DNA of 64,000 nucleotides from the sequence record OZ346189.1; one strand, written 5' to 3'. The stretch comes from a phage. Positions 17,203 to 52,492 of this stretch are shown one piece after another. Position numbers and translations under genes: made by a program. Below the pieces are notes generated by a model. That model was not told the origin of the DNA. It did no database searches and was given only the letters and a program-made list of their open reading frames with translations. Numbering within the stretch: the first letter of the stretch is position 1; each line of letters opens with the position of its first letter.

Positions 17203-17721
17203 ATTTTATGCAGCGCCCATCCCCGGTGGTTGTCTCCCCCGTCACCGGTGCCTGCCGTCCTTTCGATAGGTATATTGTGCCACCTGGCGGGGCCGCTGTC
17301 AACACTTCTTCAAAAATTTTTTCTAACATAATGCACCAACCGCTGCAACCTGGCGGGGCCAGCCTGGCAGGACCTGACTGACCAGGTAGGAGAGAGTGAA
17401 AACTTGCAAACCTGGTAGGCCTATGCTACAGGGCAGGTAACAATTGAAGAGGAGGTACAAAAATGAAAAGTAATATAATCCCCTGGAAAATGTAGCGATC
17501 AACGCCGCTGAAGTTATCACCCTGGTTGAAAAGGCTATGGCGGGAGCGTTGGAACATAAAGAAGAGTACGAAAAATGATGGTTAACCTGGCAGGGGCGGC
17601 GGCTGGAGAATTCTTCCCAAAAAATAATTCTAACTAATGGTTGACAGCTCGGAGAGTTCTGTTATTCTTATCCTCGCAAGGTGAACAACACCACACTAAT
17701 TAACAGAGAGGATAAAAAATC

Positions 17722-17919
17722 ATGAACGCCTACGGAATTAAAGTACGTCGCAACACTCACCAGGCCGTCACCGATCAAATGGTTTGCCAGGTGGACGTAA
17801 CCATCAACAACGGGCAAGGCCTTTATAAATTCCGTCGCGGTCAGAGCTATACCCGGCAACAGCTTAATCGTTGCGCCCTGACAAAAGGCCAGATCAACCA
17901 CTGGTTTAATAAAAAATAA
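17722..17919 (+). CDS. hypothetical basic protein
   Basis: 65 aa; AGAGAGGA SD; first gene after the non-coding locus. Confidence 0.5.
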   Translation: MNAYGIKVRRNTHQAVTDQMVCQVDVTINNGQGLYKFRRGQSYTRQQLNRCALTKGQINHWFNKK

Positions 17920-17922
17920 GTA

Positions 17923-17951
17923 TTGACATATAGTCTGACACCAAATACACT
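17923..17951 (+). promoter_or_regulatory. sigma70-like promoter
   Basis: TTGACA 17923-17928, 17-nt spacer, TACACT 17946-17951. Confidence 0.4.
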
Positions 17952-17983
17952 AAAAGCACAAAAGACACTAAGAGGATAAAATC

Positions 17984-18382
17984 ATGAAAACCACTACCTT
18001 TAATTTTGATAATGCGGACTTTTCTTTTTCTGATGTCAAGAACTGCCGCCGGGATCGTGGATTTTACAAGGCTTATAATCTGGTGGGCCTGGACGATGAC
18101 AATAATTTGCACGAAGTAGCTGAGATCCGGTATTATGCCGCCGCCAGCGGGAACACTCAATACTGCGTTTTTTGGATTCACGACAACAAGAACAATAAGT
18201 ACGGTTATACTGGCGGGAAGGCGAGCGGTCACGGTTACGATAAAGCTAATGCAGCACTTGAGAGCGCATTAAATGCTATGGGGATCACTGCCAACGGCTG
18301 GATCTATGAAGAAGAGTTTTTGTCGGCACTTGCTGACCACCTGGGCTATAAAAAGCACATTGTAACATGCGCCCACGAATAA
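17984..18382 (+). CDS. hypothetical protein
   Basis: 132 aa; AAGAGGA SD. Confidence 0.55.
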   Translation: MKTTTFNFDNADFSFSDVKNCRRDRGFYKAYNLVGLDDDNNLHEVAEIRYYAAASGNTQYCVFWIHDNKNNKYGYTGGKASGHGYDKANAALESALNAMGITANGWIYEEEFLSALADHLGYKKHIVTCAHE

Positions 18383-18388
18383 AAATTG

Positions 18389-18416
18389 TTGACACGCTGC
18401 AAAATTCAAGTAAACT
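18389..18416 (+). promoter_or_regulatory. sigma70-like promoter
   Basis: TTGACA 18389-18394, 16-nt spacer, TAAACT 18411-18416; followed by leader hairpin 18427-18445. Confidence 0.5.
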
Positions 18417-18464
18417 AGTCACAAAAGGCGGGAATGTTTCCCGCCAACACAAAGGAAAAAGATC

Positions 18465-18869
18465 ATGAATAAGAACGTACGCCGCATCATGAACGAACTG
18501 GCAAACGATGAAAAAATTATTGACATGCATTTGATCAACATTTGCCGCCGTTGTGTAACATATAACAACCGCGCCGCAAAAGCGCGTGAGATGAACGCAA
18601 AAGGCACCTTAAAGCCATTCCAGGTGGTGGTAAAGGCCATTAAAGATGTAGCTAATACGGCAAACCAGGTACAGGGGAACACCAACGAGAGTACCAATAT
18701 TGATCCGGCTTACATCATGAAACGGATCCGGACCTGCAAGAACAAAGAGCAAGTGTATAATGTCATAGACTGGTTGGATTCTATGGGCGATGTGGTGTAC
18801 AATAGATTCTCGGCAGCTATTGAGATCCAGCTTGACAGGTTAGACGGTAAAGTACTTAAAACTTACTAA
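18465..18869 (+). CDS. hypothetical protein
   Basis: 134 aa; AAAGGAAAAAG SD. Confidence 0.55.
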   Translation: MNKNVRRIMNELANDEKIIDMHLINICRRCVTYNNRAAKAREMNAKGTLKPFQVVVKAIKDVANTANQVQGNTNESTNIDPAYIMKRIRTCKNKEQVYNVIDWLDSMGDVVYNRFSAAIEIQLDRLDGKVLKTY

Positions 18870-18870
18870 A

Positions 18871-18915
18871 TTTATTTTTAGATGGCCTTGACTCCAGGGC
18901 CATCAATAAAGTAAA
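18871..18915 (+). repeat. 45-bp post-gene hairpin element, copy 1
   Basis: TTTATTTTTA-GATGGCC-TTGACTCCAG-GGCCATC-AATAAAGTAAA; stem 18881-18887/18898-18904; directly after stop codon. Confidence 0.6.
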
Positions 18916-18949
18916 TTAATCTCAGCTAAGCGAAAAAGGGGGCTTTAAG

Positions 18950-19069
18950 ATGAGCACTACACGCCAATACACAAAGGTAACTATTATCGCCTGCGTTGTC
19001 GGTTACATCCTGGCGCAAATGTTAATGAGTAGCGCTAACAGTTTTGCAAAATTTTTCTTAAATTTTTAA
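18950..19069 (+). CDS. small hydrophobic protein (39 aa)
   Basis: ATG 18950 after AAAGGGGG SD; MSTTRQYTKVTIIACVVGYILAQMLMSSANSFAKFFLNF; below ORF-track size cutoff. Confidence 0.4.
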   Translation: MSTTRQYTKVTIIACVVGYILAQMLMSSANSFAKFFLNF

Positions 19070-19097
19070 TTGACAAGCTAACTTAGATTGATATACT
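19070..19097 (+). promoter_or_regulatory. sigma70-like promoter
   Basis: TTGACA 19070-19075, 16-nt spacer, TATACT 19092-19097. Confidence 0.55.
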
Positions 19098-19148
19098 TAA
19101 ACACGTAAACGGGAAAACTTCCCAGAACACACAAAAGGAGAAAACACC

Positions 19149-19490
19149 ATGACTACTATGACCGCCGCAGAAAAAGCTATTCAGATCGCCGCACTGAAAA
19201 AACAGATCGCAGACCTTGAGAACAAGATCGATAACTTTGAAATCGACGAGGACAAGTACGACGAAAACTATGATGAATGGTTAGACGAGATCTACGGCGA
19301 AATTATGATCGGAAACATTTCTTTTCTTCCGTCGCGTATCCTCAAGGAGCTAGATCCTATCACTTACCGCTGCGGATTTAGCGACTACATCGACAGCCTG
19401 GATATTGAGGACGATGAAGAATACCAGGAATTACAGACAGAGTTAGAAGAAGCAAAAGAAGAGCTTGCAGAACTGGAAGAAAACGAGTAA
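19149..19490 (+). CDS. highly acidic protein (candidate DNA mimic)
   Basis: 113 aa, about one third Asp/Glu with predicted coiled-coil N-terminus; AAAAGGAGAA SD. Confidence 0.55.
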   Translation: MTTMTAAEKAIQIAALKKQIADLENKIDNFEIDEDKYDENYDEWLDEIYGEIMIGNISFLPSRILKELDPITYRCGFSDYIDSLDIEDDEEYQELQTELEEAKEELAELEENE

Positions 19491-19492
19491 GA

Positions 19493-19536
19493 TTATTTTT
19501 AGATGGCCTTGACTCCAGGGCCATCAATAAAGTAAA
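19493..19536 (+). repeat. 45-bp post-gene hairpin element, copy 2
   Basis: Identical core to copy 1; stem 19502-19508/19519-19525. Confidence 0.6.
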
Positions 19537-19579
19537 CTTTATACTGTTAACACTGAACTAATGCATAGGAGTTAAAACC

Positions 19580-19825
19580 ATGGCAGCACTAATCACCAAA
19601 TATTATGCCCCTACCAACACCAAAAGCGCCCGTATCATGGTAAAAGGCTTCGGACGTAAAAAGGTGTACACCTGGGATTATGCCTTAGACACGGAAGACA
19701 ACTACACCAACGCGATGACCGATTTTATTAATGATCTGAACACGCGGATCTTGACAAATTATAAAATTACCGATATTGCCTATATAGGGGAAGGCGGGAT
19801 CTGTTTTGTCGGTATCGTCAAATAA
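19580..19825 (+). CDS. hypothetical protein
   Basis: 81 aa; TAGGAG SD. Confidence 0.5.
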   Translation: MAALITKYYAPTNTKSARIMVKGFGRKKVYTWDYALDTEDNYTNAMTDFINDLNTRILTNYKITDIAYIGEGGICFVGIVK

Positions 19826-19900
19826 GCTGTTTTTTCGGTGGTCCTGGTAGCAGGGCCATCTATAAAGATAGTTTATCAATACAATGAAAGGAGAAAGTAC

Positions 19901-20254
19901 ATGATCAGCGGGGCAAGTTTTATTATTGGCGCTATTGCTACGGCTTTAATTGTAAACAAGATCCAATCTAAAAACGAAAAAGATAGCAACGCCCTTACAG
20001 AATACCCGTTTTGGGTATTCAACGACAATGAAGACTATATTATCAAGTACAAGAATGAGAAGGGCGACCAGGTAACACCGCGACCGATCCCGGCTTACAA
20101 GATGCAAGAAACACTATACCGCCTAAAGGCTGGAGGCGCAAAAATCGTAGACTTTTGGGGATACGATCACACAGATCAGGAAGTTATAAAGCGCCGTATC
20201 CGGGCTATTCAGGCCAATATTGAAGTTAGCAAGGGGGGAATATATGAAGATTAA
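19901..20254 (+). CDS. membrane-anchored protein
   Basis: ORF track 19838-20254; ATG 19901 after AAAGGAGAAAG; N-terminal TM helix ASFIIGAIATALIV. Confidence 0.5.
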   Translation: MISGASFIIGAIATALIVNKIQSKNEKDSNALTEYPFWVFNDNEDYIIKYKNEKGDQVTPRPIPAYKMQETLYRLKAGGAKIVDFWGYDHTDQEVIKRRIRAIQANIEVSKGGIYED

Positions 20255-20441
20255 TTTTGAGAAGATTGTAAAGCGATCTCATGCTTCCGAAGAGCTGCCG
20301 GAACGCCGCCAGCGCAACAATAAACTGAATAAGCCAAAAAGATTTGGGAAGATCTGGCGGAATCATTATGATCGCAAATTACCGGGCCTGCTTTTGGAAC
20401 GTGAACGACAGGCGGAACGATACCGCCACAAAGGCAAATAA
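20244..20441 (+). CDS. small basic protein
   Basis: ORF track 20220-20441; ATG 20244 after AAGGGGGG; Arg/Lys-rich. Confidence 0.45.
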   Translation: MKINFEKIVKRSHASEELPERRQRNNKLNKPKRFGKIWRNHYDRKLPGLLLERERQAERYRHKGK

Positions 20442-20449
20442 CAACCAAC

Positions 20450-20474
20450 GCCCCGCCATTGTGCGGGGCTTTTT
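20450..20474 (+). terminator. rho-independent terminator
   Basis: GCCCCGC-CATTGT-GCGGGGC followed by TTTTTATTT. Confidence 0.65.
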
Positions 20475-20622
20475 ATTTCTATCCTACGAATAGCGCCCCC
20501 GGTTGGCCCTGTAAGCGCCAAAAAGGCCCCACCTATGCAATCGCCCCCCTTTAACCTGAAAACATCGCTTAGGGCCGTTTTATGGCGTTAAAAATATCAT
20601 TGATAGTGATTTTATTTAAAGC

Positions 20623-20650
20623 TTGACATCTTAAACAGGTTAGCTATACT
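20623..20650 (+). promoter_or_regulatory. sigma70-like promoter
   Basis: TTGACA 20623-20628, 16-nt spacer, TATACT 20645-20650. Confidence 0.55.
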
Positions 20651-20682
20651 AACCACATCAAAGAGAGAAAGGAGTAAACGCC

Positions 20683-20943
20683 ATGCGTAAATTAAAAAAT
20701 TTTGATAAAGTTGATGTTGTCCTGAATAATTTTTACTACTGCAACAACAAGGCCATTTGGTGGCGTGATAGTTCCACCGATAAAGTCAAGGCGCGCTTTC
20801 TCCAGGGGCACTGGCAAGGCCGTCCAGTGATTAAAATCATGGGGCAATTGGTAGCGTTTAAAAATTGCCGCCGTGTTGATGACGTTGAGGAGATTTTAAA
20901 CATTTTGCGCCACAATAATTTAAAAAATAGTGTTGACAAGTAA
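20683..20943 (+). CDS. hypothetical protein
   Basis: 86 aa; AAAGGAG SD. Confidence 0.5.
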   Translation: MRKLKNFDKVDVVLNNFYYCNNKAIWWRDSSTDKVKARFLQGHWQGRPVIKIMGQLVAFKNCRRVDDVEEILNILRHNNLKNSVDK

Positions 20944-20960
20944 ATCTCAATAAGTATAAT
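20933..20960 (+). promoter_or_regulatory. sigma70-like promoter
   Basis: TTGACA 20933-20938 (overlaps upstream stop), 16-nt spacer, TATAAT 20955-20960; leader hairpin GGCGGGAAAACTTCCCGCC 20971-20989. Confidence 0.6.
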
Positions 20961-21017
20961 TAAACACACAGGCGGGAAAACTTCCCGCCACTAACAAAGA
21001 AAACAGGAGAAAATATC

Positions 21018-21641
21018 ATGACCACCGTTAACATTACCACAGGTTACAATTTAGCTTTCGACGTGCTGACCGACGAACAAAAAGAAAAAGCCGTTGAAAT
21101 GGTCCGCGAAAGAGAAGAACACAGCGGGGATAACTTTTTTGCAGAAAGTGTAATTGAAGACTATAAAGAATATATCTTTCCAGAGTATGGCCTTGAAGAT
21201 ACCGAAGTACATTGGTCCGGCTTTTGGTGCCAGGGCGACGGCGCATCAATCAGTGCGGAAAACGTGGATTTAGAAAAATTCTTGCGTAAAGTCAAGTCTC
21301 TGACTAAATTCCGCTCAATTCGTCACTTGTTCGGCACAATGCACGATGGCGAGCTATCCGCAAGTGTTGAGCGCGATCCATATAGCCGTTATAGTCACGA
21401 AAACACTGTAAGCGGGTACATCGATACTACATGGCTAGACCTGACCGCCAAACAAGAAAACAAAGTGGAAGACCTGGAAGAACTGATCACCGAGACGGTA
21501 CGGGAGCTATCCCGCAAGGTTTACGTAGACCTGGAGGAGGCCTATCTAGAACAGTTCACCGCAGAAAACCTGATCGGCCTTATCGAGGCCAATGATTGGC
21601 GGTTTGATGTCGATGAATATGGTGAGATGACTTTTTCATAA
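21018..21641 (+). CDS. acidic hypothetical protein
   Basis: 207 aa; ACAGGAGAA SD; Asp/Glu-rich. Confidence 0.55.
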   Translation: MTTVNITTGYNLAFDVLTDEQKEKAVEMVREREEHSGDNFFAESVIEDYKEYIFPEYGLEDTEVHWSGFWCQGDGASISAENVDLEKFLRKVKSLTKFRSIRHLFGTMHDGELSASVERDPYSRYSHENTVSGYIDTTWLDLTAKQENKVEDLEELITETVRELSRKVYVDLEEAYLEQFTAENLIGLIEANDWRFDVDEYGEMTFS

Positions 21642-21731
21642 ATAAAGTGTTGCAATAGCCTAAAAACCTGCTATATTAAAACTCAAGGGGGCAAGACGTT
21701 TGCCCCCACACAAAACAAAGAGGAAAACATC

Positions 21732-22112
21732 ATGAAAAACACTACTAAAGCTATTGACACTGTTATGTTTAACCTGGTTACATTCCGTGAAGATATGAAA
21801 GATCTTCCACGTGAAACAGTGTGCGATCACATTGAAAACTATCGCAAACTAATCAAAGAGTTGCCTTTAAAACGTGACCAGTATGCGGCTAACGCTATGC
21901 TTAACGCCATGATCAAAAAGATGATTCAGTGTGATTTAACTCTGGCCTATGATTATGCAGGTGGTCGTTTTGCAGTATACAATCAGCCCGTGCCTGGTAT
22001 GAGCACCACCGAAGAATTGCACGCGTTAAATCTGAAACAAGATGTATGGGATAACATGCCCCGCGTGGTGGTGTGGGCAGAAAGCGGAAAGATTTACGGC
22101 GATAATTTTTAA
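21732..22112 (+). CDS. hypothetical protein
   Basis: 126 aa; AAAGAGGAA SD. Confidence 0.55.
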   Translation: MKNTTKAIDTVMFNLVTFREDMKDLPRETVCDHIENYRKLIKELPLKRDQYAANAMLNAMIKKMIQCDLTLAYDYAGGRFAVYNQPVPGMSTTEELHALNLKQDVWDNMPRVVVWAESGKIYGDNF

Positions 22113-22122
22113 TCAGGTAACA

Positions 22123-22148
22123 GGCGGCATATTTGCCGCCTTATTGTT
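22123..22148 (+). terminator. rho-independent terminator
   Basis: GGCGGCA-TATT-TGCCGCC followed by TTATTGTT. Confidence 0.5.
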
Positions 22149-22176
22149 AAACAGAACTGCAAAAGAGGTACATAGA

Positions 22177-22548
22177 ATGGAATTTATTATTTTGGCTGTA
22201 GTAGTTGCCTTGTTCAACGCCTGGATCGCTGGCAAGATAGGTAGATCCGCTTTTCTATGGTTTGTTATATCTATTTTCCTGGGAGTGGTTGCAACTATTG
22301 TATTGGTTATCCTTGCAATTGTTGACAAGGGCGATAATAGAAAGGGTAAAGTGTTTTCCGACCTGTATGACGCACAAACGTTTGTCAACGCCTATTATAG
22401 TGATCTTCCAGTCTCCCTACGCTGCAGCCTGGCACAACAGGTTTTTGATGAGGCTAAAACCAGAGACCAAGCCCATGAGATATGTTTAACTGAAGCGGAT
22501 CGCCTATTTGAGAGGAATAGAAAATATGTGGACCAGCCGTTTAAATAA
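22177..22548 (+). CDS. membrane protein
   Basis: ORF track 22042-22548 spans the terminator; ATG 22177 after AAAGAGGTA; two TM helices (FIILAVVVALFNAWIA, FLWFVISIFLGVVATIVLVILAIV). Confidence 0.5.
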   Translation: MEFIILAVVVALFNAWIAGKIGRSAFLWFVISIFLGVVATIVLVILAIVDKGDNRKGKVFSDLYDAQTFVNAYYSDLPVSLRCSLAQQVFDEAKTRDQAHEICLTEADRLFERNRKYVDQPFK

Positions 22549-22658
22549 CGCCACGTTAATTAATCCCTTTAGTGAAGATTTGAAGCCAGCCGCCTGGCGT
22601 GACGGATTCAATAACGAACGCTTTATTTTCAGGCCTGATCTTGAGGAATTTTATAACA

Positions 22659-22784
22659 ATGGATCGAACAACAGCGGAGATAATTTTTCTTGTGGTGTGC
22701 GTGGTGATAGGACTCCTGGGGGCCATTGTAAACCACGTCACTACTAACAGGAGGGAAGGGGGAGACGATGACAACCAAGGATAA
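22659..22784 (+). CDS. small membrane protein (uncertain)
   Basis: ORF track 22599-22784; ATG 22659; TM segment IIFLVVCVVIGLLGAIV; competes with overlapping ORF 22508-22747. Confidence 0.3.
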   Translation: MDRTTAEIIFLVVCVVIGLLGAIVNHVTTNRREGGDDDNQG

Positions 22785-22891
22785 GCCATGCGCTGATAAG
22801 GTGCGCCGTGTTATGGTATGGCTTGAGATTATCGCCCTTGAAATATTGTTAGGCGTAGGGATGTACTTTATCGCTGTAAGTAACTAAGAGC

Positions 22892-22920
22892 GGCCCCCGA
22901 TCATGGGGGCCTATCTTTTT
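22892..22920 (+). terminator. rho-independent terminator
   Basis: GGCCCCC-GATCAT-GGGGGCC followed by TATCTTTTT. Confidence 0.65.
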
Positions 22921-22942
22921 AAAAAATTTTTCTTCCGGGGTG

Positions 22943-22970
22943 TTGCAATCCGGTCCGGAATGTGGATAAT
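22943..22970 (+). promoter_or_regulatory. sigma70-like promoter
   Basis: TTGCAA 22943-22948, 16-nt spacer, GATAAT 22965-22970; leader hairpin 22981-22995. Confidence 0.45.
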
Positions 22971-23026
22971 AACAATCAACGGGGAGCTAATCCCCACCAC
23001 CACAAAAACCAGAAAGGAGAAACAAA

Positions 23027-23227
23027 ATGAGCAACAATATCCGCGTTATTAACTTCAAAAAAGAAGAAAAAATTGCCGTGCTGATTGACGGTCAAGAAAT
23101 CTTCAAGGGCGACTATGAAGATCATCAAACGGCGATTAGTATCACTCGCGTGATTGGTTATCATAATTTCTACCCCCAAGGCGCTGAGGCAGCAGTTAAA
23201 CGAATCAAAGAGATTGTAGGCCTGTAA
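23027..23227 (+). CDS. hypothetical protein
   Basis: 66 aa; AAAGGAGAA SD. Confidence 0.5.
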   Translation: MSNNIRVINFKKEEKIAVLIDGQEIFKGDYEDHQTAISITRVIGYHNFYPQGAEAAVKRIKEIVGL

Positions 23228-23230
23228 AAT

Positions 23231-23274
23231 TTATTTTTAGATGGCCTTGACTTCAGGGCCATCGATAAAGTAAA
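23231..23274 (+). repeat. 45-bp post-gene hairpin element, copy 3
   Basis: TTATTTTTA-GATGGCC-TTGACTTCAG-GGCCATC-GATAAAGTAAA; two substitutions relative to copies 1-2. Confidence 0.6.
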
Positions 23275-23320
23275 TTTAAACCCTGTTAAAATACCACGCA
23301 GTTAACAAGGAGTGATAGAC

Positions 23321-23620
23321 ATGTTTATCCAGGCTAATAATCTTTATTTCTTTGATGGTCAGATCGTAGATGGTGTGGAAGTGGAGATCACCGGGTGCCC
23401 TGGCGGTCAGGCTATGACTTTTCGGAATAATGCCTTTGATGATTCTCATATCGTTATGAGAATGGAAGTTACGAAGCTGGACGACAAGAAAACACTTATT
23501 GACTATTCTGTGAAAGATCATCCAGACTACCGCATGATCCATGGTGATTTGTGCATTGTTGACCGTGACAAGGTGGGCGGCATTGTGATCGCTATTGTGA
23601 ACGATGTTTTCTCAAACTAA
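23321..23620 (+). CDS. hypothetical protein
   Basis: ORF track 23312-23620 (GTG); ATG 23321 after AAGGAG SD. Confidence 0.5.
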   Translation: MFIQANNLYFFDGQIVDGVEVEITGCPGGQAMTFRNNAFDDSHIVMRMEVTKLDDKKTLIDYSVKDHPDYRMIHGDLCIVDRDKVGGIVIAIVNDVFSN

Positions 23621-23637
23621 TTTCAGCAGGCGATTTT

Positions 23638-23988
23638 ATGAAAGTCAAACTATATTACCTTAATGAGCTTAACCCCCTTGCCCAGGTCCGCGCCCTAGCT
23701 AATACCTTGATTTGTGAGAAATCTGTATATTGTGTTGAGCTTAACGCCATGCGTGAACGTCTCAAAGGTGGTTACTTTGACATCCATGCTGCAATCAACG
23801 GCCTGAATATGGAATTTATACGCTTACGTAACAGCCGCCGGAATCTGGCAAGAATGGAACAAGATCCGGCCCACCTTCGTAAGCTGGTTATTGAAAATCA
23901 TCTGATGTTTAATGCCGAGGGTGATTATTACCATTTTCACCGCAAACGCTGGTACCGTGGCGGCAATACAGGCAAGAATGCAAAATAA
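23638..23988 (+). CDS. hypothetical protein
   Basis: 116 aa; weak SD. Confidence 0.45.
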   Translation: MKVKLYYLNELNPLAQVRALANTLICEKSVYCVELNAMRERLKGGYFDIHAAINGLNMEFIRLRNSRRNLARMEQDPAHLRKLVIENHLMFNAEGDYYHFHRKRWYRGGNTGKNAK

Positions 23989-24023
23989 GGCCCCTAGCAG
24001 GGCCTGCAGCAATATAATCACAT

Positions 24024-24057
24024 AAAGGCCATGCGGTTGCATGGCCTTTATTATTTT
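24024..24057 (+). terminator. rho-independent terminator
   Basis: Perfect 11-bp stem AAAGGCCATGC-GGTT-GCATGGCCTTT followed by ATTATTTT. Confidence 0.7.
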
Positions 24058-24190
24058 GGCGTTACAACGGCATACGGGGCGCTTAAAAAATTTTTAAAGA
24101 AGTACTTGCATCATTCCCGACAATATGGATAATAAGAGTTGTCGAGGGGGAGGCCCCCAATCGTTGACCAGATAGATAGGAGTTAAAATC

Positions 24191-24475
24191 ATGGCTATTG
24201 TTACCGCTGGCGATGTAGTAGAAATGGAAGCAAAATACTTAAAAGCGGGTATGCACATCCTACGGAATGATCAAGAGTTATTATTAACGATGGTTGACTA
24301 TAATCACGGCCAGGATTATCCAAGCATCGACTACTTTTTTGAGTATGTTGATGAAGAGTTGAAAGAGGATGAGGCCTATTGCGGTGAGTTCTGCAACTTC
24401 TTTTGTCCTGATGAGGTTGTAAAGGTTATTTATCAACCTGGCGTAGCTTTCCCGCTGCACGCTATCAATAAATAA
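24191..24475 (+). CDS. acidic hypothetical protein
   Basis: 94 aa; TAGGAG SD. Confidence 0.5.
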   Translation: MAIVTAGDVVEMEAKYLKAGMHILRNDQELLLTMVDYNHGQDYPSIDYFFEYVDEELKEDEAYCGEFCNFFCPDEVVKVIYQPGVAFPLHAINK

Positions 24476-24530
24476 ACCTGGCGGGGCCGAAAAGGCCCCC
24501 AATTATGAAAATAAAGAGAGGCAAATCATC

Positions 24531-24764
24531 ATGATGGAACAAATTAAACGCGCCGAGGCTATTAATGGCAACGTGATCTATTTTGTCAGCAAAAACGAAA
24601 AAGGCGTACCATATGCGGCAGTAATAGTACAACCTGACGGCGATTATTGGTTTACTGTGTACGGCGCTTATTCTTTTGGGCGTCCAGTGCATGATAAAAT
24701 TTTGAAAGTAGCGAACCCTACCGGGAAGAATATCACAGCAGAAAAATTTTTTGAAAATAGTTGA
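24531..24764 (+). CDS. hypothetical protein
   Basis: 77 aa; AAGAGAGG SD. Confidence 0.5.
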   Translation: MMEQIKRAEAINGNVIYFVSKNEKGVPYAAVIVQPDGDYWFTVYGAYSFGRPVHDKILKVANPTGKNITAEKFFENS

Positions 24765-24788
24765 CATGACCATATAAGACTGTAATAT
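24761..24788 (+). promoter_or_regulatory. sigma70-like promoter
   Basis: TTGACA 24761-24766, 16-nt spacer, TAATAT 24783-24788; leader hairpin about 24799-24814. Confidence 0.55.
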
Positions 24789-24839
24789 ATAAATCAAAGG
24801 GGGCAACTAACCCCACCAACTACAAAGAGGATAAAAATC

Positions 24840-25019
24840 ATGGCTATTATTGCAAAGACTGAGATCGTAGGCTTAGATTCTATTCTCCTCGCATATGAGG
24901 AAGCTATAGAAATGTATGTGGTTTCCTATGGTGAGTATATCCGTGAATATAAATCTATTGATCTGGCTTTTGAATGTTATATCCGCCAGGTTAATAAAGC
25001 GTACGATGATTATCGTTAA
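24840..25019 (+). CDS. hypothetical protein (59 aa)
   Basis: ATG 24840 after AAAGAGGA SD; 60 codons to TAA 25017-25019; below ORF-track cutoff. Confidence 0.45.
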   Translation: MAIIAKTEIVGLDSILLAYEEAIEMYVVSYGEYIREYKSIDLAFECYIRQVNKAYDDYR

Positions 25020-25025
25020 AATAGT

Positions 25026-25054
25026 TTGACAACAGCCATCTTACAAAGCATAAT
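25026..25054 (+). promoter_or_regulatory. sigma70-like promoter
   Basis: TTGACA 25026-25031, 17-nt spacer, CATAAT 25049-25054; leader hairpin GGCGG...CCGCC 25061-25079. Confidence 0.55.
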
Positions 25055-25106
25055 ACATAAGGCGGTGGAATGGTCCGCCACCTGGAACAAAGAAGAGGTA
25101 AACACC

Positions 25107-25352
25107 ATGAAAAGCAATAAAGGTTATAACGGTTACAAAAACAAAACTCATTGGAATGTAAGCCTTTGGATTAATAACGATGAGTCATTGTACCGGTTGG
25201 CCCAAGGCTTTATTAACGCCAATGCTAATCGTAATGATGCGGCGCGGGATATGATGCTTTTTCTGGAGCTAACCGGACAAGATAAGACCCCGGACGGCTT
25301 CAAGTACAGCACTACGGCGATCCGTGCCGCGATGGTTGGAATGAAACACTAA
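25107..25352 (+). CDS. hypothetical protein
   Basis: ORF track 25026-25352 starts in promoter; ATG 25107 after AAGAGGTAAA. Confidence 0.5.
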   Translation: MKSNKGYNGYKNKTHWNVSLWINNDESLYRLAQGFINANANRNDAARDMMLFLELTGQDKTPDGFKYSTTAIRAAMVGMKH

Positions 25353-25429
25353 AAGCACATAGCTGCCTTACCCTGGGGCTGTGGTAGCGGCCCCATGAAT
25401 AAGGTTACTAACAGAAGAGAATAAACACC

Positions 25430-25534
25430 ATGAAACAGAAATTAATCGATGCAGTGATCTTGGTTATTGCCCTGGGTATTGGCCTGATTGCAACCATGTC
25501 TAATATGATCTTGTCTTCCAACGGTATCGGGTGA
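25430..25534 (+). CDS. small hydrophobic protein (34 aa)
   Basis: ATG 25430 after AGAAGAGAA; MKQKLIDAVILVIALGIGLIATMSNMILSSNGIG. Confidence 0.35.
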   Translation: MKQKLIDAVILVIALGIGLIATMSNMILSSNGIG

Positions 25535-25543
25535 GGTTGGCAA

Positions 25544-25759
25544 ATGATCACTAACAAAACAGGCAAAACGGAATTTTTACGCAACTTACAGATCGGCAAG
25601 CCTGAGATCTGGTACTGCACTAAAACACCACGTGACGAAATGAAAGACTTCACCGCCACGCTGCAACGGGTAAAGATATCTATCACGCAGAAAAAGGCCT
25701 TACTAGTGGTGGAAGGGGAGATCCCCCAAACCGTTGTTATAGTTGAGCGTACAGCATAG
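25544..25759 (+). CDS. hypothetical protein
   Basis: 71 aa. Confidence 0.45.
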   Translation: MITNKTGKTEFLRNLQIGKPEIWYCTKTPRDEMKDFTATLQRVKISITQKKALLVVEGEIPQTVVIVERTA

Positions 25760-25850
25760 TTTAATTTATACAGATACCTGAAAATTAACCAACAAAGCAT
25801 AAACAGGCGGTTACCGCCGCCTTAAACGTAGCAGAAAGAGGATAGACACA

Positions 25851-26135
25851 ATGAAAAAGATGATCGCAGTGGTTACCCTGGTTGTTGGACTTAATGCGCC
25901 TGTAATGGCTAAAGAGCTGGCAAAAGAGGTTAATCTAACGGATATTCATGCCGTCAATCAAATCGGGGTTACTTATCGCTTATGCCTTGCCGCTAAAACT
26001 TTTAAGGACGGCACAACAGAGTACTACGGATTCGAGGGTATCCGGTGCGGTGAGCTTGCTCGCGACCTTAAGGAAGATCCAGACCTGGAGGATCTGCCCA
26101 TAACCGTGAACGGAAAAACTTACGTGAACCGTTAA
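25851..26135 (+). CDS. secreted/periplasmic protein
   Basis: 94 aa; signal-peptide-like N-terminus MKKMIAVVTLVVGLNAPVMA; AAGAGGA SD. Confidence 0.5.
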   Translation: MKKMIAVVTLVVGLNAPVMAKELAKEVNLTDIHAVNQIGVTYRLCLAAKTFKDGTTEYYGFEGIRCGELARDLKEDPDLEDLPITVNGKTYVNR

Positions 26136-26469
26136 CCATGAGAAAGATAATTATTACCATGGGGATCGTGGCGGCAATGTTGGCGATCTTTCCCTTTATG
26201 GTTAGGTATGTGCTGATTAATGTTGTCCTGGTAGTCAGCGATCTGGTGTTATATATTAACTCATTGTTTTAGGCGCGATAATGACAGCGGAAGAAGTTAA
26301 AAAAAGTACTGGCGGTACTGCGTTATCATAATCATTGCAAGGTGAAGAATGATCCTGATTATCTTGATTCATCCCTTGAAGAGGATACACTACAAGCCAT
26401 AAGCAACATGCAAGAATTGCTTAAGCGTATGACAGAGAAAAACCGACCGGACTACATAGGGGGTAAAAT

Positions 26470-26781
26470 ATGATCGCTATTACGCCAACCGTTTTAGATT
26501 GGTATCGGCAACGCATAGCGCCTCCGCTGGCTATCTTCAAAGATGCGGAAGCAAAACAACGCCGGATCTCAATACATGAGATCATCAACCTTAACGCTGG
26601 AGGCACACCATACCGCCCAGGACCTGGCCGTGAGATGGACAATACATTGGCGATCCTGAAGATACGCCGTAAACGGTCCTCCCTTACGCTGGATTCATTA
26701 CACACAATGCAGTCCCCGTTCCAGGTGACTGGGAAACGGATCGCCAGGTCCTGGACAAAGGCCAATGACCGGACCGTATAA
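26470..26781 (+). CDS. hypothetical basic protein
   Basis: 103 aa; GGGGG SD. Confidence 0.45.
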   Translation: MIAITPTVLDWYRQRIAPPLAIFKDAEAKQRRISIHEIINLNAGGTPYRPGPGREMDNTLAILKIRRKRSSLTLDSLHTMQSPFQVTGKRIARSWTKANDRTV

Positions 26782-26868
26782 ATAAAAAGTGTTTTGGTAC
26801 TGATTTTGGGGTTGACTTGTTCGGCCCCTTTTGCTATTCTTATTAAACGGGCGGCACTTGGGAACAGG

Positions 26869-26891
26869 GGGAGACAATCACCAGGCCTGCC
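26869..26891 (-). repeat. conserved motif copy 3 (inverted orientation)
   Basis: GGGAGACAATCACCAGGCCTGCC on + strand; reverse complement 22/23 identical to 17081-17104, flanking CCCCTGTT also conserved. Confidence 0.5.
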
Positions 26892-26916
26892 TGTCATATA
26901 AGAACTATAAAAACCG

Positions 26917-26945
26917 TTGACATCTGCCAGGGGGTGGGGTAACAT
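26917..26945 (+). promoter_or_regulatory. sigma70-like promoter
   Basis: TTGACA 26917-26922, 17-nt spacer, TAACAT 26940-26945; second candidate TTGACT 26812-26817 / TATTCT 26835-26840. Confidence 0.4.
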
Positions 26946-26999
26946 TTATCTTGAAGGGGCAAAGGTGCCCACACAACAACCAGAAGAGAGGAAAACACT

Positions 27000-27272
27000 A
27001 TGTCAAGCTGGATTAATCAAGAAGTCGAATCACGTTTTAATGCTATTTGGGATCTCATCGAAAAAGAAGACGGCACATCAAGCCCCTACCTCAACAATTT
27101 GGAATTCCATTTTGTGGAAGCGATGAACGCAGAACATGATCACGAAGGTGGTGCGGACGAGTTCGCTAAAGGGTATGGCTTCAACAATGCCAACGAAATG
27201 ATCGAGGCGGTTGTACTCCAGGCTGAGGAAGATTATCAATTAAAAACGCTTGAATTCTGCCGCCGTAAGTAA
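27000..27272 (+). CDS. acidic hypothetical protein
   Basis: 90 aa; AGAGAGGAAAA SD. Confidence 0.5.
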   Translation: MSSWINQEVESRFNAIWDLIEKEDGTSSPYLNNLEFHFVEAMNAEHDHEGGADEFAKGYGFNNANEMIEAVVLQAEEDYQLKTLEFCRRK

Positions 27273-27332
27273 TAAGATAATGACACGGGCCGGGAGGCCC
27301 ACTAATCAGAACCACACAAAGAGGTAAACATC

Positions 27333-27596
27333 ATGAAACGTCTTGATCAGCTTAAACTAGTTCAGTACATGGCCTACAAAGTTCTTGAAGTCCAAAAAGG
27401 TAGCAAAAAAGAGGTTTGCGAGAAAGCATATAAGATCTTTACCCGTAAAAAAGATGATTGGATGTTACGCCAGACCAAAAAAGCCGATATCCTGGGATAC
27501 CTGGAAGAAGAGATCCGACTTGAAGAACAAGAAGAGATCCGCCGTAGTGAGGCAGATTATCAGGCAGCTTGGGAAAACTGGATGAGCAACAAATAA
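27333..27596 (+). CDS. hypothetical protein
   Basis: 87 aa; AAGAGGTAAA SD; Lys/Glu-rich. Confidence 0.5.
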   Translation: MKRLDQLKLVQYMAYKVLEVQKGSKKEVCEKAYKIFTRKKDDWMLRQTKKADILGYLEEEIRLEEQEEIRRSEADYQAAWENWMSNK

Positions 27597-27662
27597 TACA
27601 ACAAGTTACATGGTCAGGGGCAATAAAGCCCCTTGATCACATAAAAATTATGCTATCCCTGG

Positions 27663-27691
27663 TTGACAGGGATCGGCAGTTTTGCTATATT
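27663..27691 (+). promoter_or_regulatory. sigma70-like promoter
   Basis: TTGACA 27663-27668, 17-nt spacer, TATATT 27686-27691. Confidence 0.55.
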
Positions 27692-27740
27692 CTTTTTTGA
27701 AGGGAAGTTGTAAGAAAATTAACTAAGAGGTAAAAACACC

Positions 27741-28160
27741 ATGAACATTAAATCTAATAATCCGGCATATAGCTTTGATAACGCTTTTTGTCACGGTCCG
27801 GCGGCGAAAGGATTCGAAATCGATGGTAAACTAATTATTGTCAATGTTGACGGGGAAGAGGTTGCAGTATATCCGGTGGCAGACGTAAAAAGCCGTTTAC
27901 AATGCCGCATGGATGTTACCGCCTATCAGCTTGATCCGGTCCGCATAGTTGCCCTGGTCCTGGAAGAAGAAATTAAAGCCATGCACCATAGCAACAGATT
28001 TATTGGTGACGCGCAGGATAATATGAAAGTATGCCGCCATAAAGTTAATGAAGTGCTTAAAGAGTACGGCTATAAAGATCTTATGATCAAACGTGAGGAA
28101 AAATTCCGCTACCGTAACGACCTGGCAAATCGGATTTTTGAAATATACGAATCATTATAA
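27741..28160 (+). CDS. hypothetical protein
   Basis: 139 aa; AAGAGGTAAAA SD; last gene of + block. Confidence 0.55.
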   Translation: MNIKSNNPAYSFDNAFCHGPAAKGFEIDGKLIIVNVDGEEVAVYPVADVKSRLQCRMDVTAYQLDPVRIVALVLEEEIKAMHHSNRFIGDAQDNMKVCRHKVNEVLKEYGYKDLMIKREEKFRYRNDLANRIFEIYESL

Positions 28161-28178
28161 TTTTTTAACTGAATTATC

Positions 28179-28203
28179 AAGGGGCTTAGGCCCCTTTCTT
28201 TTT
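28179..28203 (+). terminator. rho-independent terminator at end of + block
   Basis: AGGGGC-TTAG-GCCCCT followed by TTCTTTTT. Confidence 0.65.
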
Positions 28204-28589
28204 GTCTGCTCTTCCTCCTACCACAAACGGCCCAGCCTGGCAAGTGGAATAATTGACTAGCCATCAATCCCACACACTGTACAAATATACATGGAAAATA
28301 ACTATTGCATAATTTTTCATTGTGTGGTAGCAGGTCCATTTTTACCCGTTTTCTCTCTCAAAATTGCACGTAATGCCGCTATTGCACAAAATTTAACCTG
28401 ATGCACATCTTCAATATCTTGTCAACAACTAAAAATCTTTATAAGTCATACACTTACACACTCACAAAAGCGTGTTCTACGTGAAAAATCGAGTATAACT
28501 ATAGCCGCCAGATCTCAGAATTTACAAAGGCCATCATTAAAGCTTCAGTAAAATCAGTCATTCCTCACCTCTTGTTAGTCACTATACTA

Positions 28590-28853
28590 TCATTTATCCT
28601 TGTCGTCAAGAACTTTTTTAAATCTTTCAGGGATATCTCCCGTTCTTAGATAGTTCATGACCTCGCAAGGTTCCCACTTGAATTTCTTACAGAGCAGGGC
28701 GGCTGAGATTGTTTCATTGCGAAAAGAAAGGATATTAATATCCCACTCTGAGAACCCCAACTTCCGAAGGGTAGCTACAGAAATCCTCACCGCAACCCAG
28801 CAGCAAAAACATGCAACAAACGCCACTGCTACAACCCACATCAGGATGTTCAT
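28590..28853 (-). CDS. membrane protein
   Basis: 87 aa; N-terminal TM WVVAVAFVACFCCWVAV; last gene of - block. Confidence 0.45.
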   Translation of the reverse strand: MNILMWVVAVAFVACFCCWVAVRISVATLRKLGFSEWDINILSFRNETISAALLCKKFKWEPCEVMNYLRTGDIPERFKKVLDDKDK

Positions 28854-28862
28854 ATAAGCACC

Positions 28863-28946
28863 TTACTGAAATACAAGACACAGTGTTAAGGTTACTGACC
28901 AGCAAATAATTAACAGTGCCGTTGCAACCTTGGCAAGATTTATCAT
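28863..28946 (-). CDS. micro-ORF, hydrophobic (27 aa)
   Basis: ATG overlaps upstream stop (ATGA); MINLAKVATALLIICWSVTLTLCLVFQ; GAGG SD. Confidence 0.25.
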   Translation of the reverse strand: MINLAKVATALLIICWSVTLTLCLVFQ

Positions 28947-29230
28947 AGTGCCTCTAAGATTTCATATCCTTCGGGTCGGAATACAAGCCACTCCGTGGCT
29001 CCGTTTGGTCGATACGCTTTATACAGAACAACCTGGTCTCGGCACATGCACATGGCTACATAGTTTTCATCCACACCTGCAGCCTGCATTGCATCTTCTT
29101 CTCCGGCAACTGCTTTGCTTACAACTTCCTTGGTAGGCAGGTGTGCGATCAGCTCGTCACCATCATTAATTCCAAAATGGCTGAGTTCGCCGTTGGTATC
29201 TTTAATCTTAATCTTAACCAGATCTTTCAT
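28943..29230 (-). CDS. small acidic protein, paralog family member
   Basis: 95 aa; N-terminal KIKIK and C-terminal ...EGYEILEAL shared with family. Confidence 0.5.
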   Translation of the reverse strand: MKDLVKIKIKDTNGELSHFGINDGDELIAHLPTKEVVSKAVAGEEDAMQAAGVDENYVAMCMCRDQVVLYKAYRPNGATEWLVFRPEGYEILEAL

Positions 29231-51681: not shown

Positions 51682-52289
51682 TCTTCTTGGGCCTCTTTAG
51701 CATCAATATACTTGCACACAATCTCCGATGCACACTCCCAAGGTGCACCTTCAGGGTTTACAACATCAAACTCAACCCCTTTTATTCCGTTCTTTTCCAG
51801 ACTTAGATAGGTTCTGGAATCATTTCCCCAGTCATATCCTACACGGTGAATACGGAACAACAACAGATCTCCACCTGTGCTGTATGCGTACTCGCTAAGG
51901 CATGCCAGCTCCTCTTTGAATCCCCCATCGGAGTAAACAATAACCCCTTTACCTTCAGGGAAATCTTTCTTCAAAGATGCGACTGAGGCTTTACCGAAAG
52001 CATCTTCACCAAAGATAGGTTTAATCAGATTTTCACTACAATGGATCATCCATTCTCGCGGAGAAACATGCTTGCCGTCTATCATTAAGAAAGGGCAAGG
52101 CTCTTCTTTGTAGTGGCGGTCATAAAGTGCATTCCAGAGTTGAGGAGTTACACCAGCTGCCTTAATTGCCACACTGAAGAGCATTTCCTTAACCTCACGG
52201 TGGTGTGAGTTAGGAATAGCTTCCAACAAGAGATCTGCAATGTGATCCTTACCACTGCTGGGTGGGGCGTTAAGAACAATAATATCCAT
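51675..52289 (-). CDS. deoxynucleoside monophosphate kinase
   Basis: 204 aa; P-loop NAPPSSGKDHIADLL as in phage dNMP kinases. Confidence 0.5.
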   Translation of the reverse strand: MDIIVLNAPPSSGKDHIADLLLEAIPNSHHREVKEMLFSVAIKAAGVTPQLWNALYDRHYKEEPCPFLMIDGKHVSPREWMIHCSENLIKPIFGEDAFGKASVASLKKDFPEGKGVIVYSDGGFKEELACLSEYAYSTGGDLLLFRIHRVGYDWGNDSRTYLSLEKNGIKGVEFDVVNPEGAPWECASEIVCKYIDAKEAQEEC

Positions 52290-52492
52290 TAAAAACCTCC
52301 GTGGTATTCTTCAACTGCATCAATAATACTTTTACACTTATCTACCAGCTCGTTAGCCACTACAGCATCGTCTTCCCAAACAGCCTCCTCAATCTGATCA
52401 AGCAATGATCGCATCTTACTCATCATTTCTGGGATAAAGTTTTCTGAAAAGCTGTCTGGAATTGTTAACTCTAGTGTCATTTCGGTCTCCAA
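52289..52492 (-). CDS. acidic hypothetical protein
   Basis: 67 aa; about 30% Asp/Glu. Confidence 0.4.
   Translation of the reverse strand: METEMTLELTIPDSFSENFIPEMMSKMRSLLDQIEEAVWEDDAVVANELVDKCKSIIDAVEEYHGGF

What the first reader, a model, noticed from the sequence alone, without database searches (positions are those of the whole stretch)
19149..19490. Strongly acidic small proteins as candidate DNA mimics or anti-restriction factors
The 113-aa product of 19149-19490 is about one third Asp/Glu, with a predicted coiled-coil N-terminus followed by DEDKYDENYDEW...DIEDDEEYQE. Similar acidic ORFs are 27000-27272, 24191-24475, 21018-21641 and 52289-52492 (-). This composition is characteristic of Ocr/ArdA-like DNA mimics, but composition alone is weak evidence.
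Basis: inference. Interest (0 to 1): 0.45.

Follow-up and report, generated by a model that had tools for sequence, protein, structure and literature searches.

The report
Acidic early phage protein, likely counter-defence
A very acidic 113-residue protein of an rV5-like E. coli phage belongs to a large, unnamed phage family with no known structural relatives; a published transposon screen found its close orthologue is needed only on one clinical E. coli strain, which points to counter-defence, though not to Ocr- or ArdA-type anti-restriction.

Summary
The ORF at 19149-19490(+) is real. It encodes 113 aa with 31% Asp+Glu, net charge -26 and pI 4.05, the most acidic of 122 ORFs in this Vequintavirus window. 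It has a strong RBS and a near-consensus sigma-70 promoter.

The signal is more than composition. The protein belongs to a large virulent-phage family (888 cluster representatives at E<=1e-10) with a fixed layout: heptad N-helix, acidic linker, conserved ~50-residue head (D69 invariant), and poly-acidic heptad C-helix. Some members have the head only.

AlphaFold models are confident (pLDDT ~90). Neither the whole protein nor the head matches any solved structure, Pfam, NCBIfam or PADLOC family. It is not a relative of Ocr or ArdA.

The orthologue bas54_0108 (93% identical, syntenic) is dispensable on E. coli K-12, shows no significant depletion in a stored table whose signature is that of isolate CFE311, and is reported as depleted on clinical isolate CFE303. 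Its target is unknown.

Type I anti-restriction is not excluded, but relatives without a detectable homologue tolerate type I restriction equally well.

The four other "similar" ORFs are unrelated, only moderately acidic and unsupported.

Best reading: a stand-alone early counter-defence inhibitor from a new family, mechanism unproven.

The parts
19070..19097 (+). Sigma-70-type promoter-like site, TTGACA-16 nt-TATACT with an extended -10 TG. It is the start of a 66-nt promoter/leader cassette (19070-19135).
   Evidence: 11 of 12 hexamer matches, among the best in the region. repeat D4: the cassette is 71% identical to 20933-20998, which lies upstream of the 207-aa gene.
19134..19140 (+). Ribosome-binding site AAAGGAG, 8 nt upstream of the ATG.
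   Evidence: Read from the sequence. The RBS-to-start context recurs before neighbouring genes (repeats D2 and D3).
19149..19490 (+). Coding sequence for the 113-aa acidic protein (PHROG 9294; orthologue of bas54_0108 and bas59_0104).
19164..19232 (+). N-terminal amphipathic heptad helix, residues 6-28. Predicted to pair antiparallel with the C-terminal helix as a stalk.
19242..19412 (+). Acidic linker plus the conserved head domain, residues 32-88 (helix, beta-hairpin, helix, helix). This is the best-conserved part: Y41, L45, S62, L65, D69 (invariant), P70, A/T72, Y73, C75, G76, D79, Y80.
19416..19481 (+). C-terminal poly-acidic heptad helix, residues 90-111.
   Evidence: AlphaFold helix H90-111. 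Hydrophobic positions 92, 95, 99, 102, 106, 109, 113; the other positions are 33-76% D/E across the family (most above 55%) with at most 11% basic residues from position 94 on. [quoted passage not shown]
18868..18917 (+). Upstream copy of a 50-nt intergenic repeat: a strong hairpin GATGGCC...GGCCATC with a TTGACT box in the loop region, followed by a TAAATT -10-like box.
   Evidence: repeat D1.
19489..19538 (+). Downstream copy of the same 50-nt repeat, overlapping the stop codon by 2 nt (94% identical to the upstream copy). It probably acts as a terminator-like hairpin for this gene plus a promoter for the next.
   Evidence: repeat D1. RNA fold -21.1 kcal/mol with z = -5.3. Promoter-like site 19509-19538.

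Best explanation
The gene encodes a small, early-expressed, stand-alone counter-defence (host-strain-specific accessory) protein of a new family. The proposed mechanism is as follows. Host RNA polymerase transcribes the gene from a near-consensus sigma-70 promoter soon after infection. The product folds into a two-helix coiled-coil stalk carrying a compact, conserved ~50-residue head. The head binds a host protein stoichiometrically, most likely a component of an immune system present in some E. coli strains such as CFE303. The conserved polyanionic linker and C-terminal helix add electrostatic, possibly nucleic-acid-like, affinity for a basic DNA- or RNA-binding surface on that target.

Shown here or by others: the sequence features, family conservation, confident fold prediction, absence of known relatives, dispensability on K-12, and reported conditional depletion on CFE303 for the orthologue.

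Inferred: early timing, inhibition by binding, the head as the specificity element, the charge as a mimicry or steering element, and the identity of the target.
For: - Real, expressed-looking gene: RBS and promoter.
- Most acidic ORF in the window.
- Large family: 3263 cluster representatives at E<=1e-3 and 888 at E<=1e-10, almost all 100-135 aa with the same end-to-end layout.
- Acidity is a family trait: median 31% D+E, 5th percentile 25%, K+R about 7.5%. Heptad cores are position-specific and the non-core positions of the C-helix are mostly acidic.
- The head is the most conserved part, with D69 invariant, and it folds alone (pLDDT 90.5).
- Head-only natural versions exist, for example gene 2 of the early left end of Proteus podophage PM16, and many 55-85 aa members in viral contigs. 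A tandem two-head protein also exists (P0163).
- The family is found in virulent phages and is essentially absent from plasmids.
- It always sits among small unannotated genes with no conserved partner.
- Genetics for the 93%-identical syntenic orthologue bas54_0108: non-essential on K-12 (18/19 TA sites); log2FC -0.52, q=1 in the stored resampling table that carries the CFE311 signature; 'clear depletion' on CFE303 according to the authors.
Against: - The CFE303 result is one sentence in the Methods of a preprint. The per-gene CFE303 numbers were not recoverable, because the two stored resampling sheets are identical and look like the CFE311 comparison.
- No knockout, complementation or defence-system pairing is reported for this gene.
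- Conditional need in one strain could reflect physiology rather than immunity.
- Early timing is inferred only from a consensus promoter scan.
- No partner protein, oligomeric state or binding has been predicted or measured.
- Bas50, which carries the orthologue, is still partly restricted by Druantia III and ARMADA II in EHEC, so the protein is not a general shield.
Confidence: 0.55

Rival explanations
1. One reading: an Ocr/ArdA-like DNA mimic that blocks type I restriction-modification (and perhaps BREX) by occupying the enzyme's DNA-binding groove.
For: - Its 113 aa and 31% D+E are close to what I recall for T7 Ocr (about 117 aa, roughly 29% acidic; my own knowledge).
- It has a near-consensus sigma-70 promoter.
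- Charge is conserved across the family.
- The head-only homologue is gene 2 at the early left end of an Autographiviridae phage. T7-like phages carry ocr or a SAM hydrolase at their gp0.3 locus.
- Vequintaviruses are barely restricted by type I systems although they carry 10-17 EcoKI sites: Bas54 EOP is 0.11-0.54 on EcoKI and 0.6-4.7 on EcoCFT_I, against about 5e-4 on EcoRI and no plaques on EcoRV or EcoCFT_II. Bas01, with 3 EcoKI sites, is restricted about 1e4-fold in the same assay.
- The screen's reference host BW25113 is hsdR514 (my own knowledge), so an anti-type-I gene would be dispensable there.
Against: - No sequence similarity to any Pfam family or PDB chain.
- The phi92-like phages (the first block, taken to be Bas60, plus Bas61 and Bas62) and Bas63 tolerate EcoKI and EcoCFT_I equally well, yet no homologue was detected in any Escherichia phage outside Vequintavirus. 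Type I tolerance therefore does not track the gene.
- The strongest conservation is in the head, not in the charged surfaces.
- Head-only members exist.
- No significant depletion in the stored table that carries the CFE311 signature.
- The phage encodes three putative N6-adenine methyltransferases and a Dcm-like methyltransferase that could explain type I tolerance instead.
Confidence: 0.2
2. A host-takeover factor aimed at a housekeeping nucleic-acid-binding machine, such as RNA polymerase, H-NS or HU, RecBCD, MukBEF or gyrase. Its loss would matter only in some strain backgrounds.
For: - Several phage acidic proteins act this way. The library holds papers on gp5.9 against RecBCD (PMC9836394) and on a viral DNA mimic against MukBEF (PMC7617805), both listed.
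- The family is spread across phages of distant hosts: Escherichia, Vibrio, Pseudomonas, Proteus and Aeromonas. This fits a conserved cellular target better than a patchy defence system.
- The gene is nearly universal within Vequintavirus: about 115 of about 122 genomes.
Against: - Full dispensability on K-12 (18/19 TA sites hit) and no significant depletion in the table with the CFE311 signature argue against a target that every E. coli shares.
- The effect is strain-specific.
- No similarity to any known takeover protein.
Confidence: 0.15
3. A structural or assembly helper, either a prefoldin-like chaperone or a scaffolding-type acidic coiled coil.
For: The topology of coil, beta-hairpin, coil recalls prefoldin beta, which is the best Foldseek hit (E=1.6, prob 0.38). 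Weak Prefoldin and scaffold Pfam noise also appears.
Against: - The matches are not significant.
- The gene is non-essential on K-12.
- It lies in a block of small genes with sigma-70-type promoters, away from the structural genes.
- Head-only versions lack the coiled coil.
Confidence: 0.04

Closest known systems
T7 Ocr (gp0.3), DNA-mimic inhibitor of type I R-M and BREX and trigger of PARIS
   Same: A small phage protein with similar length and acidic fraction (the Ocr figures are from my own knowledge). It has a strong sigma-70-type promoter. A counter-defence role is plausible from the orthologue's strain-specific requirement.
   Different: - No sequence similarity.
- Different predicted architecture: a coiled-coil stalk plus a conserved head. 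Ocr is, from my own knowledge, a compact helical dimer.
- No significant fold match.
- The target is unknown and DNA mimicry has not been shown.
- Conservation is concentrated in a small domain rather than in the charge pattern.
ArdA, the anti-restriction DNA mimic of conjugative plasmids and transposons
   Same: An acidic protein proposed to act early after DNA entry.
   Different: - No match to any Pfam family at E<=1 and none to any PDB chain.
- The family is essentially absent from plasmids. The one hit among 72,556 plasmid records is a 137.6-kb record at 92% identity, about the size of this phage's genome and probably a phage.
- It is shorter than ArdA and has a different predicted fold.
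Other phage acidic inhibitors of DNA-binding machines (T7 gp5.9 against RecBCD; lambda Gam; T4 Arn; a viral mimic of DNA against MukBEF)
   Same: Small, acidic and helical, with no enzymatic motifs. Each has its own fold, so lack of homology does not exclude the same working principle (papers listed; the rest is my own knowledge).
   Different: None appears among the listed fold or sequence matches. Here the conserved element is a folded head, and the requirement is strain-specific rather than general.
Newly reported orphan anti-defence genes from the same screen (T4 nrdC.1 against Septu; bas37_0203 against Druantia III; bas54_0140 and bas54_0063 against DS-28)
   Same: Found by the same logic of conditional essentiality on clinical isolates. 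nrdC.1, bas37_0203 and bas54_0140 also have no known function or characterised homologues.
   Different: Those genes were confirmed by knockouts and paired with a cloned defence system. bas54_0108 was only noted in the Methods and was not followed up.
Prefoldin beta subunit
   Same: Overall topology of an N-helix, a beta-hairpin tip and a C-helix forming an antiparallel coiled coil. It is the best Foldseek hit.
   Different: - The match is not significant (E=1.6, TM 0.43).
- The head contains three extra helices.
- There is no sequence relationship.
- The biology differs: this is a non-essential phage accessory gene.

Membership tests
Ocr (T7 gp0.3; a Pfam family exists, from my own knowledge) | Sequence match to the family profile or to a solved Ocr chain | tested here: not met
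   No relevant Pfam hit at E<=1. phmmer and a family-profile search against all PDB chains returned only coiled-coil noise.
Ocr (T7 gp0.3) | Ocr fold (compact helical monomer forming a bent, DNA-shaped dimer) | tested here: not met
Ocr (T7 gp0.3) | Very high negative charge in a small protein | tested here: met
   31% D+E, net -26, pI 4.05. The trait is conserved across the family.
Ocr (T7 gp0.3) | Relieves type I restriction (and BREX) in vivo | not testable with these tools
   Only indirect data are available. Vequintaviruses tolerate EcoKI and EcoCFT_I, but so do relatives in which no homologue was detected.
ArdA (a Pfam family exists, from my own knowledge) | Sequence match to the family profile | tested here: not met
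   No hit.
ArdA | Carried in leading regions of conjugative plasmids or transposons | tested here: not met
   tblastn against 72,556 plasmids returned one hit, a 137.6-kb record at 92% identity that is probably a phage genome.
DNA-mimic proteins (a functional class, not a homology family) | Surface carboxylates arranged like the phosphates of a DNA duplex on a rigid scaffold | tested here: inconclusive
   The model predicts a rigid two-helix stalk whose C-helix is mostly acidic at its non-core positions.
DNA-mimic proteins (functional class) | Binds the DNA-binding site of a target protein and competes with DNA | not testable with these tools
   This needs biochemistry.
Phage anti-defence gene (functional definition) | Dispensable on a permissive host but required on a host carrying a particular defence | tested here: inconclusive
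   From the literature on the orthologue: non-essential on K-12, no significant depletion in the table with the CFE311 signature, and depleted on CFE303 according to the Methods text. The responsible host locus is not identified.
PHROG 9294 (unknown function) | Full-length profile match | tested here: met
   E=3.7e-53 over residues 1-113. The core also matches PHROGs 9396 and 37123.
Prefoldin | Significant sequence or fold match to prefoldin subunits | tested here: not met
   Foldseek E=1.6 and phmmer E=2.5. The resemblance is topological only.

The most novel reading that the evidence does not exclude
The family is a new, widespread class of phage immune inhibitors built as a charged coiled-coil rod with a conserved recognition head. 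The head docks onto a specific defence protein of some E. coli strains; candidates in CFE303 include its Druantia III system, a type I R-M system or a BREX system. The polyanionic stalk would occupy that protein's nucleic-acid-binding surface. Head-only versions in podophages would be the minimal inhibitor. This would add a fold with no solved relative and possibly the first mechanistic handle on a defence system whose trigger is still unknown.
Probability: 0.3. Interest if true: 0.72.

Novelty: new variant of a known kind. Interest (0 to 1): 0.5.

Why it matters
rV5-like phages are among the most commonly isolated coliphages and are candidates for therapy, yet most of their early genes have no known function. 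This gene combines four things:
- extreme, conserved negative charge;
- a confidently predicted domain with no solved relative;
- membership in a family of many hundreds of sequence clusters in virulent phages of several bacterial genera;
- an independent genetic hint that it is needed only on a particular clinical E. coli strain.

If it is a counter-defence inhibitor, finding its target would explain part of the host range of these phages. It would also give a tool to probe or disable a defence system, and it would name a large block of phage 'dark matter'. Equally useful is the negative result: acidic composition alone did not pick out a coherent set, because the four companion ORFs are unrelated and have no support.

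Tried and rejected
- Family libraries. Pfam, NCBIfam and PADLOC scans of all five ORFs gave only coiled-coil noise. PHROGs gave only 'unknown function'.
- PDB by sequence. A single-sequence search and a 66-sequence profile search gave coiled-coil noise. The 207-aa ORF had no hit.
- Fusion partners of longer family members. Only one Pfam match passed its curated cut-off, a cyanophage domain of unknown function (Kyano_Gp96).
- Source names in the protein database. The names are coiled-coil artefacts such as 'SbcCD ATPase' and 'GvpG'. The GenBank label 'putative phosphonoacetylaldehyde hydrolase' on the JLBYU08 orthologue has no support.
- Gene neighbourhoods. In 4 metagenomic loci (3 look-ups) and 50 viral loci there was no conserved partner, and no known anti-defence family recurs among 150 neighbouring ORFs.
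- Type I anti-restriction by natural comparison. Rejected as support, because relatives in which no homologue was detected behave the same.
- CFE303 per-gene values. These could not be recovered. The stored sheets are truncated count tables or two identical resampling tables with the CFE311 signature.
The raw data show the sensitivity is to type II and III systems only.
- The search for related loci with the broad alignment A4 failed because no conserved stretch was found. The narrower alignment A2 worked.

Full report
**What the window is.** The 11.5-kb stretch around the finding is 94-97% identical to many rV5-like E. coli myophages (genus Vequintavirus), the best match being phage A6-1. The finding lies in a run of small + strand genes. 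This run meets a block of - strand genes near 28.2-28.6 kb, where the cumulative GC skew peaks. The region is rich in sigma-70-type promoter-like sites (44 against 29 +/- 5 expected). All sites scoring 11 or 12 of 12 are on the + strand.

ORF 19149-19490(+) encodes 113 aa with 35 Asp+Glu (31%), 9 Lys+Arg, net charge -26 and pI 4.05. It is the most acidic of 122 crudely called ORFs in the window, where the mean is 13.7% and the SD 5.4%. It has an AAAGGAG ribosome-binding site 8 nt before the ATG. A TTGACA-16-TATACT promoter-like site with an extended -10 lies at 19070-19097.

The promoter-plus-leader cassette (19070-19135) recurs at 71% identity upstream of the 207-aa gene at 21018. The gene and the small ORF upstream of it are bracketed by two copies of a 50-nt repeat, at 18868-18917 and 19489-19538. 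The repeat folds into a strong hairpin (-21.1 kcal/mol, z = -5.3) and carries a TTGACT box followed by a -10-like TAAAYT.

**It is a family, not just a composition.** PHROGs places the protein in family 9294. Residues ~38-101 also match two other PHROGs. Homologues at 38-54% identity share a fixed layout:
- an N-terminal helix;
- an acidic linker;
- a conserved core, Y..LDE.YG....F.PS.iL.ELDPiAYRCG..DY.D;
- an acidic C-terminal helix.

A profile search of 1.84 billion cluster representatives found 3263 proteins at E<=1e-3 and 888 at E<=1e-10, nearly all 100-135 aa and matched end to end.

Among the best 149 hits, D+E has a median of 31% and a 5th percentile of 25%, with K+R about 7.5%. Column statistics on 66 diverse members show:
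- regular 3-4 hydrophobic spacing in both terminal helices;
- mostly acidic residues at the non-core positions of the C-helix (33-76% D/E, above 55% at most positions, with almost no basic residues);
- an acidic linker;
- a head with one invariant residue (D69) and several near-invariant ones (L45, L65, A72, Y73, with Y41 and G76 at 88%).

Negative charge is therefore a selected trait, but the sharpest conservation is in the head.

**Distribution and context.** Among annotated genomes the family occurs in the following:
- Vequintavirus (about 115 records at >=80% identity);
- 126-136-kb Vibrio myophages;
- Aeromonas, Klebsiella, Citrobacter, Salmonella and Pseudomonas phages;
- ~41-kb Proteus and Providencia podophages.

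It is essentially absent from plasmids. The single plasmid hit is a 137.6-kb record at 92% identity, about the size of this phage's genome.

In Proteus phage PM16 (Autographiviridae) the homologue is gene 2 at the early left end. It is 71 aa and consists of the head only. In 50 viral-contig loci the family splits into head-only proteins (about 55-85 aa) and proteins with arms (about 95-146 aa). One metagenomic protein carries two heads in tandem (P0163).

Neighbourhoods are arrays of small unannotated genes with no conserved partner. Among 150 neighbouring ORFs only 17 match any Pfam family, and no known anti-defence family recurs.

**Independent genetic evidence.** Phage MaxBurger is Bas54 of the BASEL collection. 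The syntenic orthologue there is bas54_0108, which is 93% identical. The HIDEN-SEQ preprint (10.1101/2025.11.20.689424) mapped transposon insertions across Bas54.
- On E. coli K-12, bas54_0108 is non-essential, with 18 of 19 TA sites hit.
[quoted passage not shown] The authors therefore trimmed the C-terminal 20% of the gene.
- The stored resampling table carries the hallmarks of the CFE311 comparison (bas54_0063 at -7.23, bas54_0140 at -5.48). In it the gene is at log2FC -0.52 with q=1.
- The gene was not followed up. The only CFE303 system listed and cloned was Druantia III, which was paired with a T-even gene.

I could not recover the CFE303 numbers, because the two stored resampling sheets are identical. 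The pattern of being dispensable on two hosts and needed on a third is what a counter-defence gene shows. [quoted passage not shown]

**The anti-restriction reading.** BASEL's text says Vequintavirinae lack protection against R-M. The raw data are more specific. Bas54 results:

| System | Type | Sites in Bas54 | EOP |
|---|---|---|---|
| EcoKI | I | 11 | 0.11-0.54 |
| EcoCFT_I | I | 4 | 0.6-4.7 |
| EcoRI | II | 32 | about 5e-4 |
| EcoRV | II | 98 | essentially no plaques |
| EcoCFT_II | III | 279 | no plaques |
| EcoP1 | III | 201 | about 1e-3 to 6e-3 |

Bas01, with 3 EcoKI sites, is restricted about 1e4-fold in the same assay. The authors credit Ocr or a SAM hydrolase for this pattern in T7-like phages. 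The reference host of the transposon screen is hsdR-deficient (my own knowledge). An Ocr-like role is therefore possible.

It does not survive a natural comparison as positive evidence. Three blocks of phi92-like phages (the first taken to be Bas60, then Bas61 and Bas62) and the Felix O1-like Bas63 tolerate both type I systems equally. Two tblastn queries find no homologue in any Escherichia phage outside Vequintavirus. The phage also encodes several DNA methyltransferases. I therefore keep type I anti-restriction as a minority rival.

**The other four ORFs.** They map to bas54_0113 (21018-21641), bas54_0121 (24191-24475), bas54_0131 (27000-27272) and bas54_0189 (52289-52492, minus strand).
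- They share no similarity with the target or with each other.
- They are 19-25% D+E.
- They belong to separate PHROGs of unknown function.
- In the stored table three of them show +0.06, +0.07 and -1.57 (q=0.11). The row for bas54_0189 was not reached.

The 207-aa protein belongs to a separate family found in jumbo phages and on Rhodobacterales plasmids. RefSeq calls it 'antitoxin of toxin-antitoxin stability system', which is not an anti-restriction label.

The best explanation is a stand-alone early inhibitor whose conserved head recognises a strain-specific host protein and whose conserved negative charge assists binding. My confidence in it is about 0.55. The gene has already been flagged, but not characterised, in a preprint. 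The family, its architecture and its lack of structural relatives do not appear to have been described in the libraries and papers I could search.

Noticed in passing
window 28525-28527: There is a clean breakpoint relative to all relatives. 4,427 bp of Bas54 (record 93151-97577) are missing here. The missing segment covers most of the ~2.5-kb intergenic region in which HIDEN-SEQ saw no transposon insertions, the annotated genes bas54_0135-0143 and most of bas54_0144. It includes bas54_0140, the anti-DS-28 gene. None of 122 related phage records spans the junction, so this is either a unique deletion or an assembly or splicing artefact.
   Followed up: partly
window 18868-18917, 19489-19538, 19824-19873, 23227-23276: A 50-nt intergenic repeat occurs in four copies (68-100% identity). 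Its 24-nt hairpin core GATGGCC..GGCCATC is found three times within 3 mismatches, where none is expected by chance. It contains a TTGACT box and is followed by TAAAYT, so it looks like a combined terminator-like hairpin and promoter. This recalls the promoter-stem-loop cassettes said to shuffle accessory genes in T4-type phages (from memory, not checked).
   Followed up: partly
window 18465-18869 (+): This neighbouring 134-aa gene is the orthologue of bas54_0106 (87% identity). It is strongly depleted in the stored HIDEN-SEQ resampling table (log2FC -3.18, q=0), which carries the CFE311 signature. It may be another uncharacterised host-specific or anti-defence gene, two genes upstream of the target.
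   Followed up: no
window 21018-21641 (+): The 207-aa acidic protein belongs to a family shared with >340-kb jumbo phages, Caulobacter and Acinetobacter phages, and 56 mostly Rhodobacterales plasmids. RefSeq names it 'antitoxin of toxin-antitoxin stability system'. Its promoter/leader cassette is 71% identical to that of the target gene. The Bas54 orthologue is non-essential on K-12 and neutral in the stored table.
   Followed up: partly
The first is the second most acidic in the window. They look like weak paralogues of each other (BLASTP E about 2-3e-4). They are the orthologues of bas54_0148 and bas54_0149.
   Followed up: no
The PHROG match starts at residue 5, so the ATG at 52480 (63 aa) is the likelier start. 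The gene is the orthologue of bas54_0189 and lies next to a putative P-loop NTPase gene in the replication and nucleotide-metabolism block, not in the small-gene region that holds the target.
   Followed up: partly
GenBank records MG0656xx matched by window 17500-29000: About 17-24 records titled 'Campylobacter phage' with host C. jejuni match this E. coli rV5-like sequence, and their copies of the target protein are about 95-99% identical to it. They are probably mislabelled or come from contaminating coliphages.
   Followed up: no
literature: BASEL S1 Data (PMC8594841) for Bas53-56 and the Bas60-63 blocks: Large coliphages with 10-17 EcoKI sites are restricted only 2-10-fold by EcoKI and not at all by EcoCFT_I. 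A siphovirus with 3 sites is restricted about 1e4-fold. The paper attributes weak type I restriction to rare sites. For Vequintavirinae and phi92-like phages this looks like an unexplained type I evasion.
   Followed up: partly
literature: HIDEN-SEQ preprint, supplementary file 9: The two resampling tables held as text (parts 17 and 19) are numerically identical over the rows they share (bas54_0080-0168). One sheet is labelled K-12 vs CFE303 and the other K-12 vs CFE311. Either the storage or the original file duplicates one sheet, so the CFE303 values for bas54_0108 could not be read.
   Followed up: no
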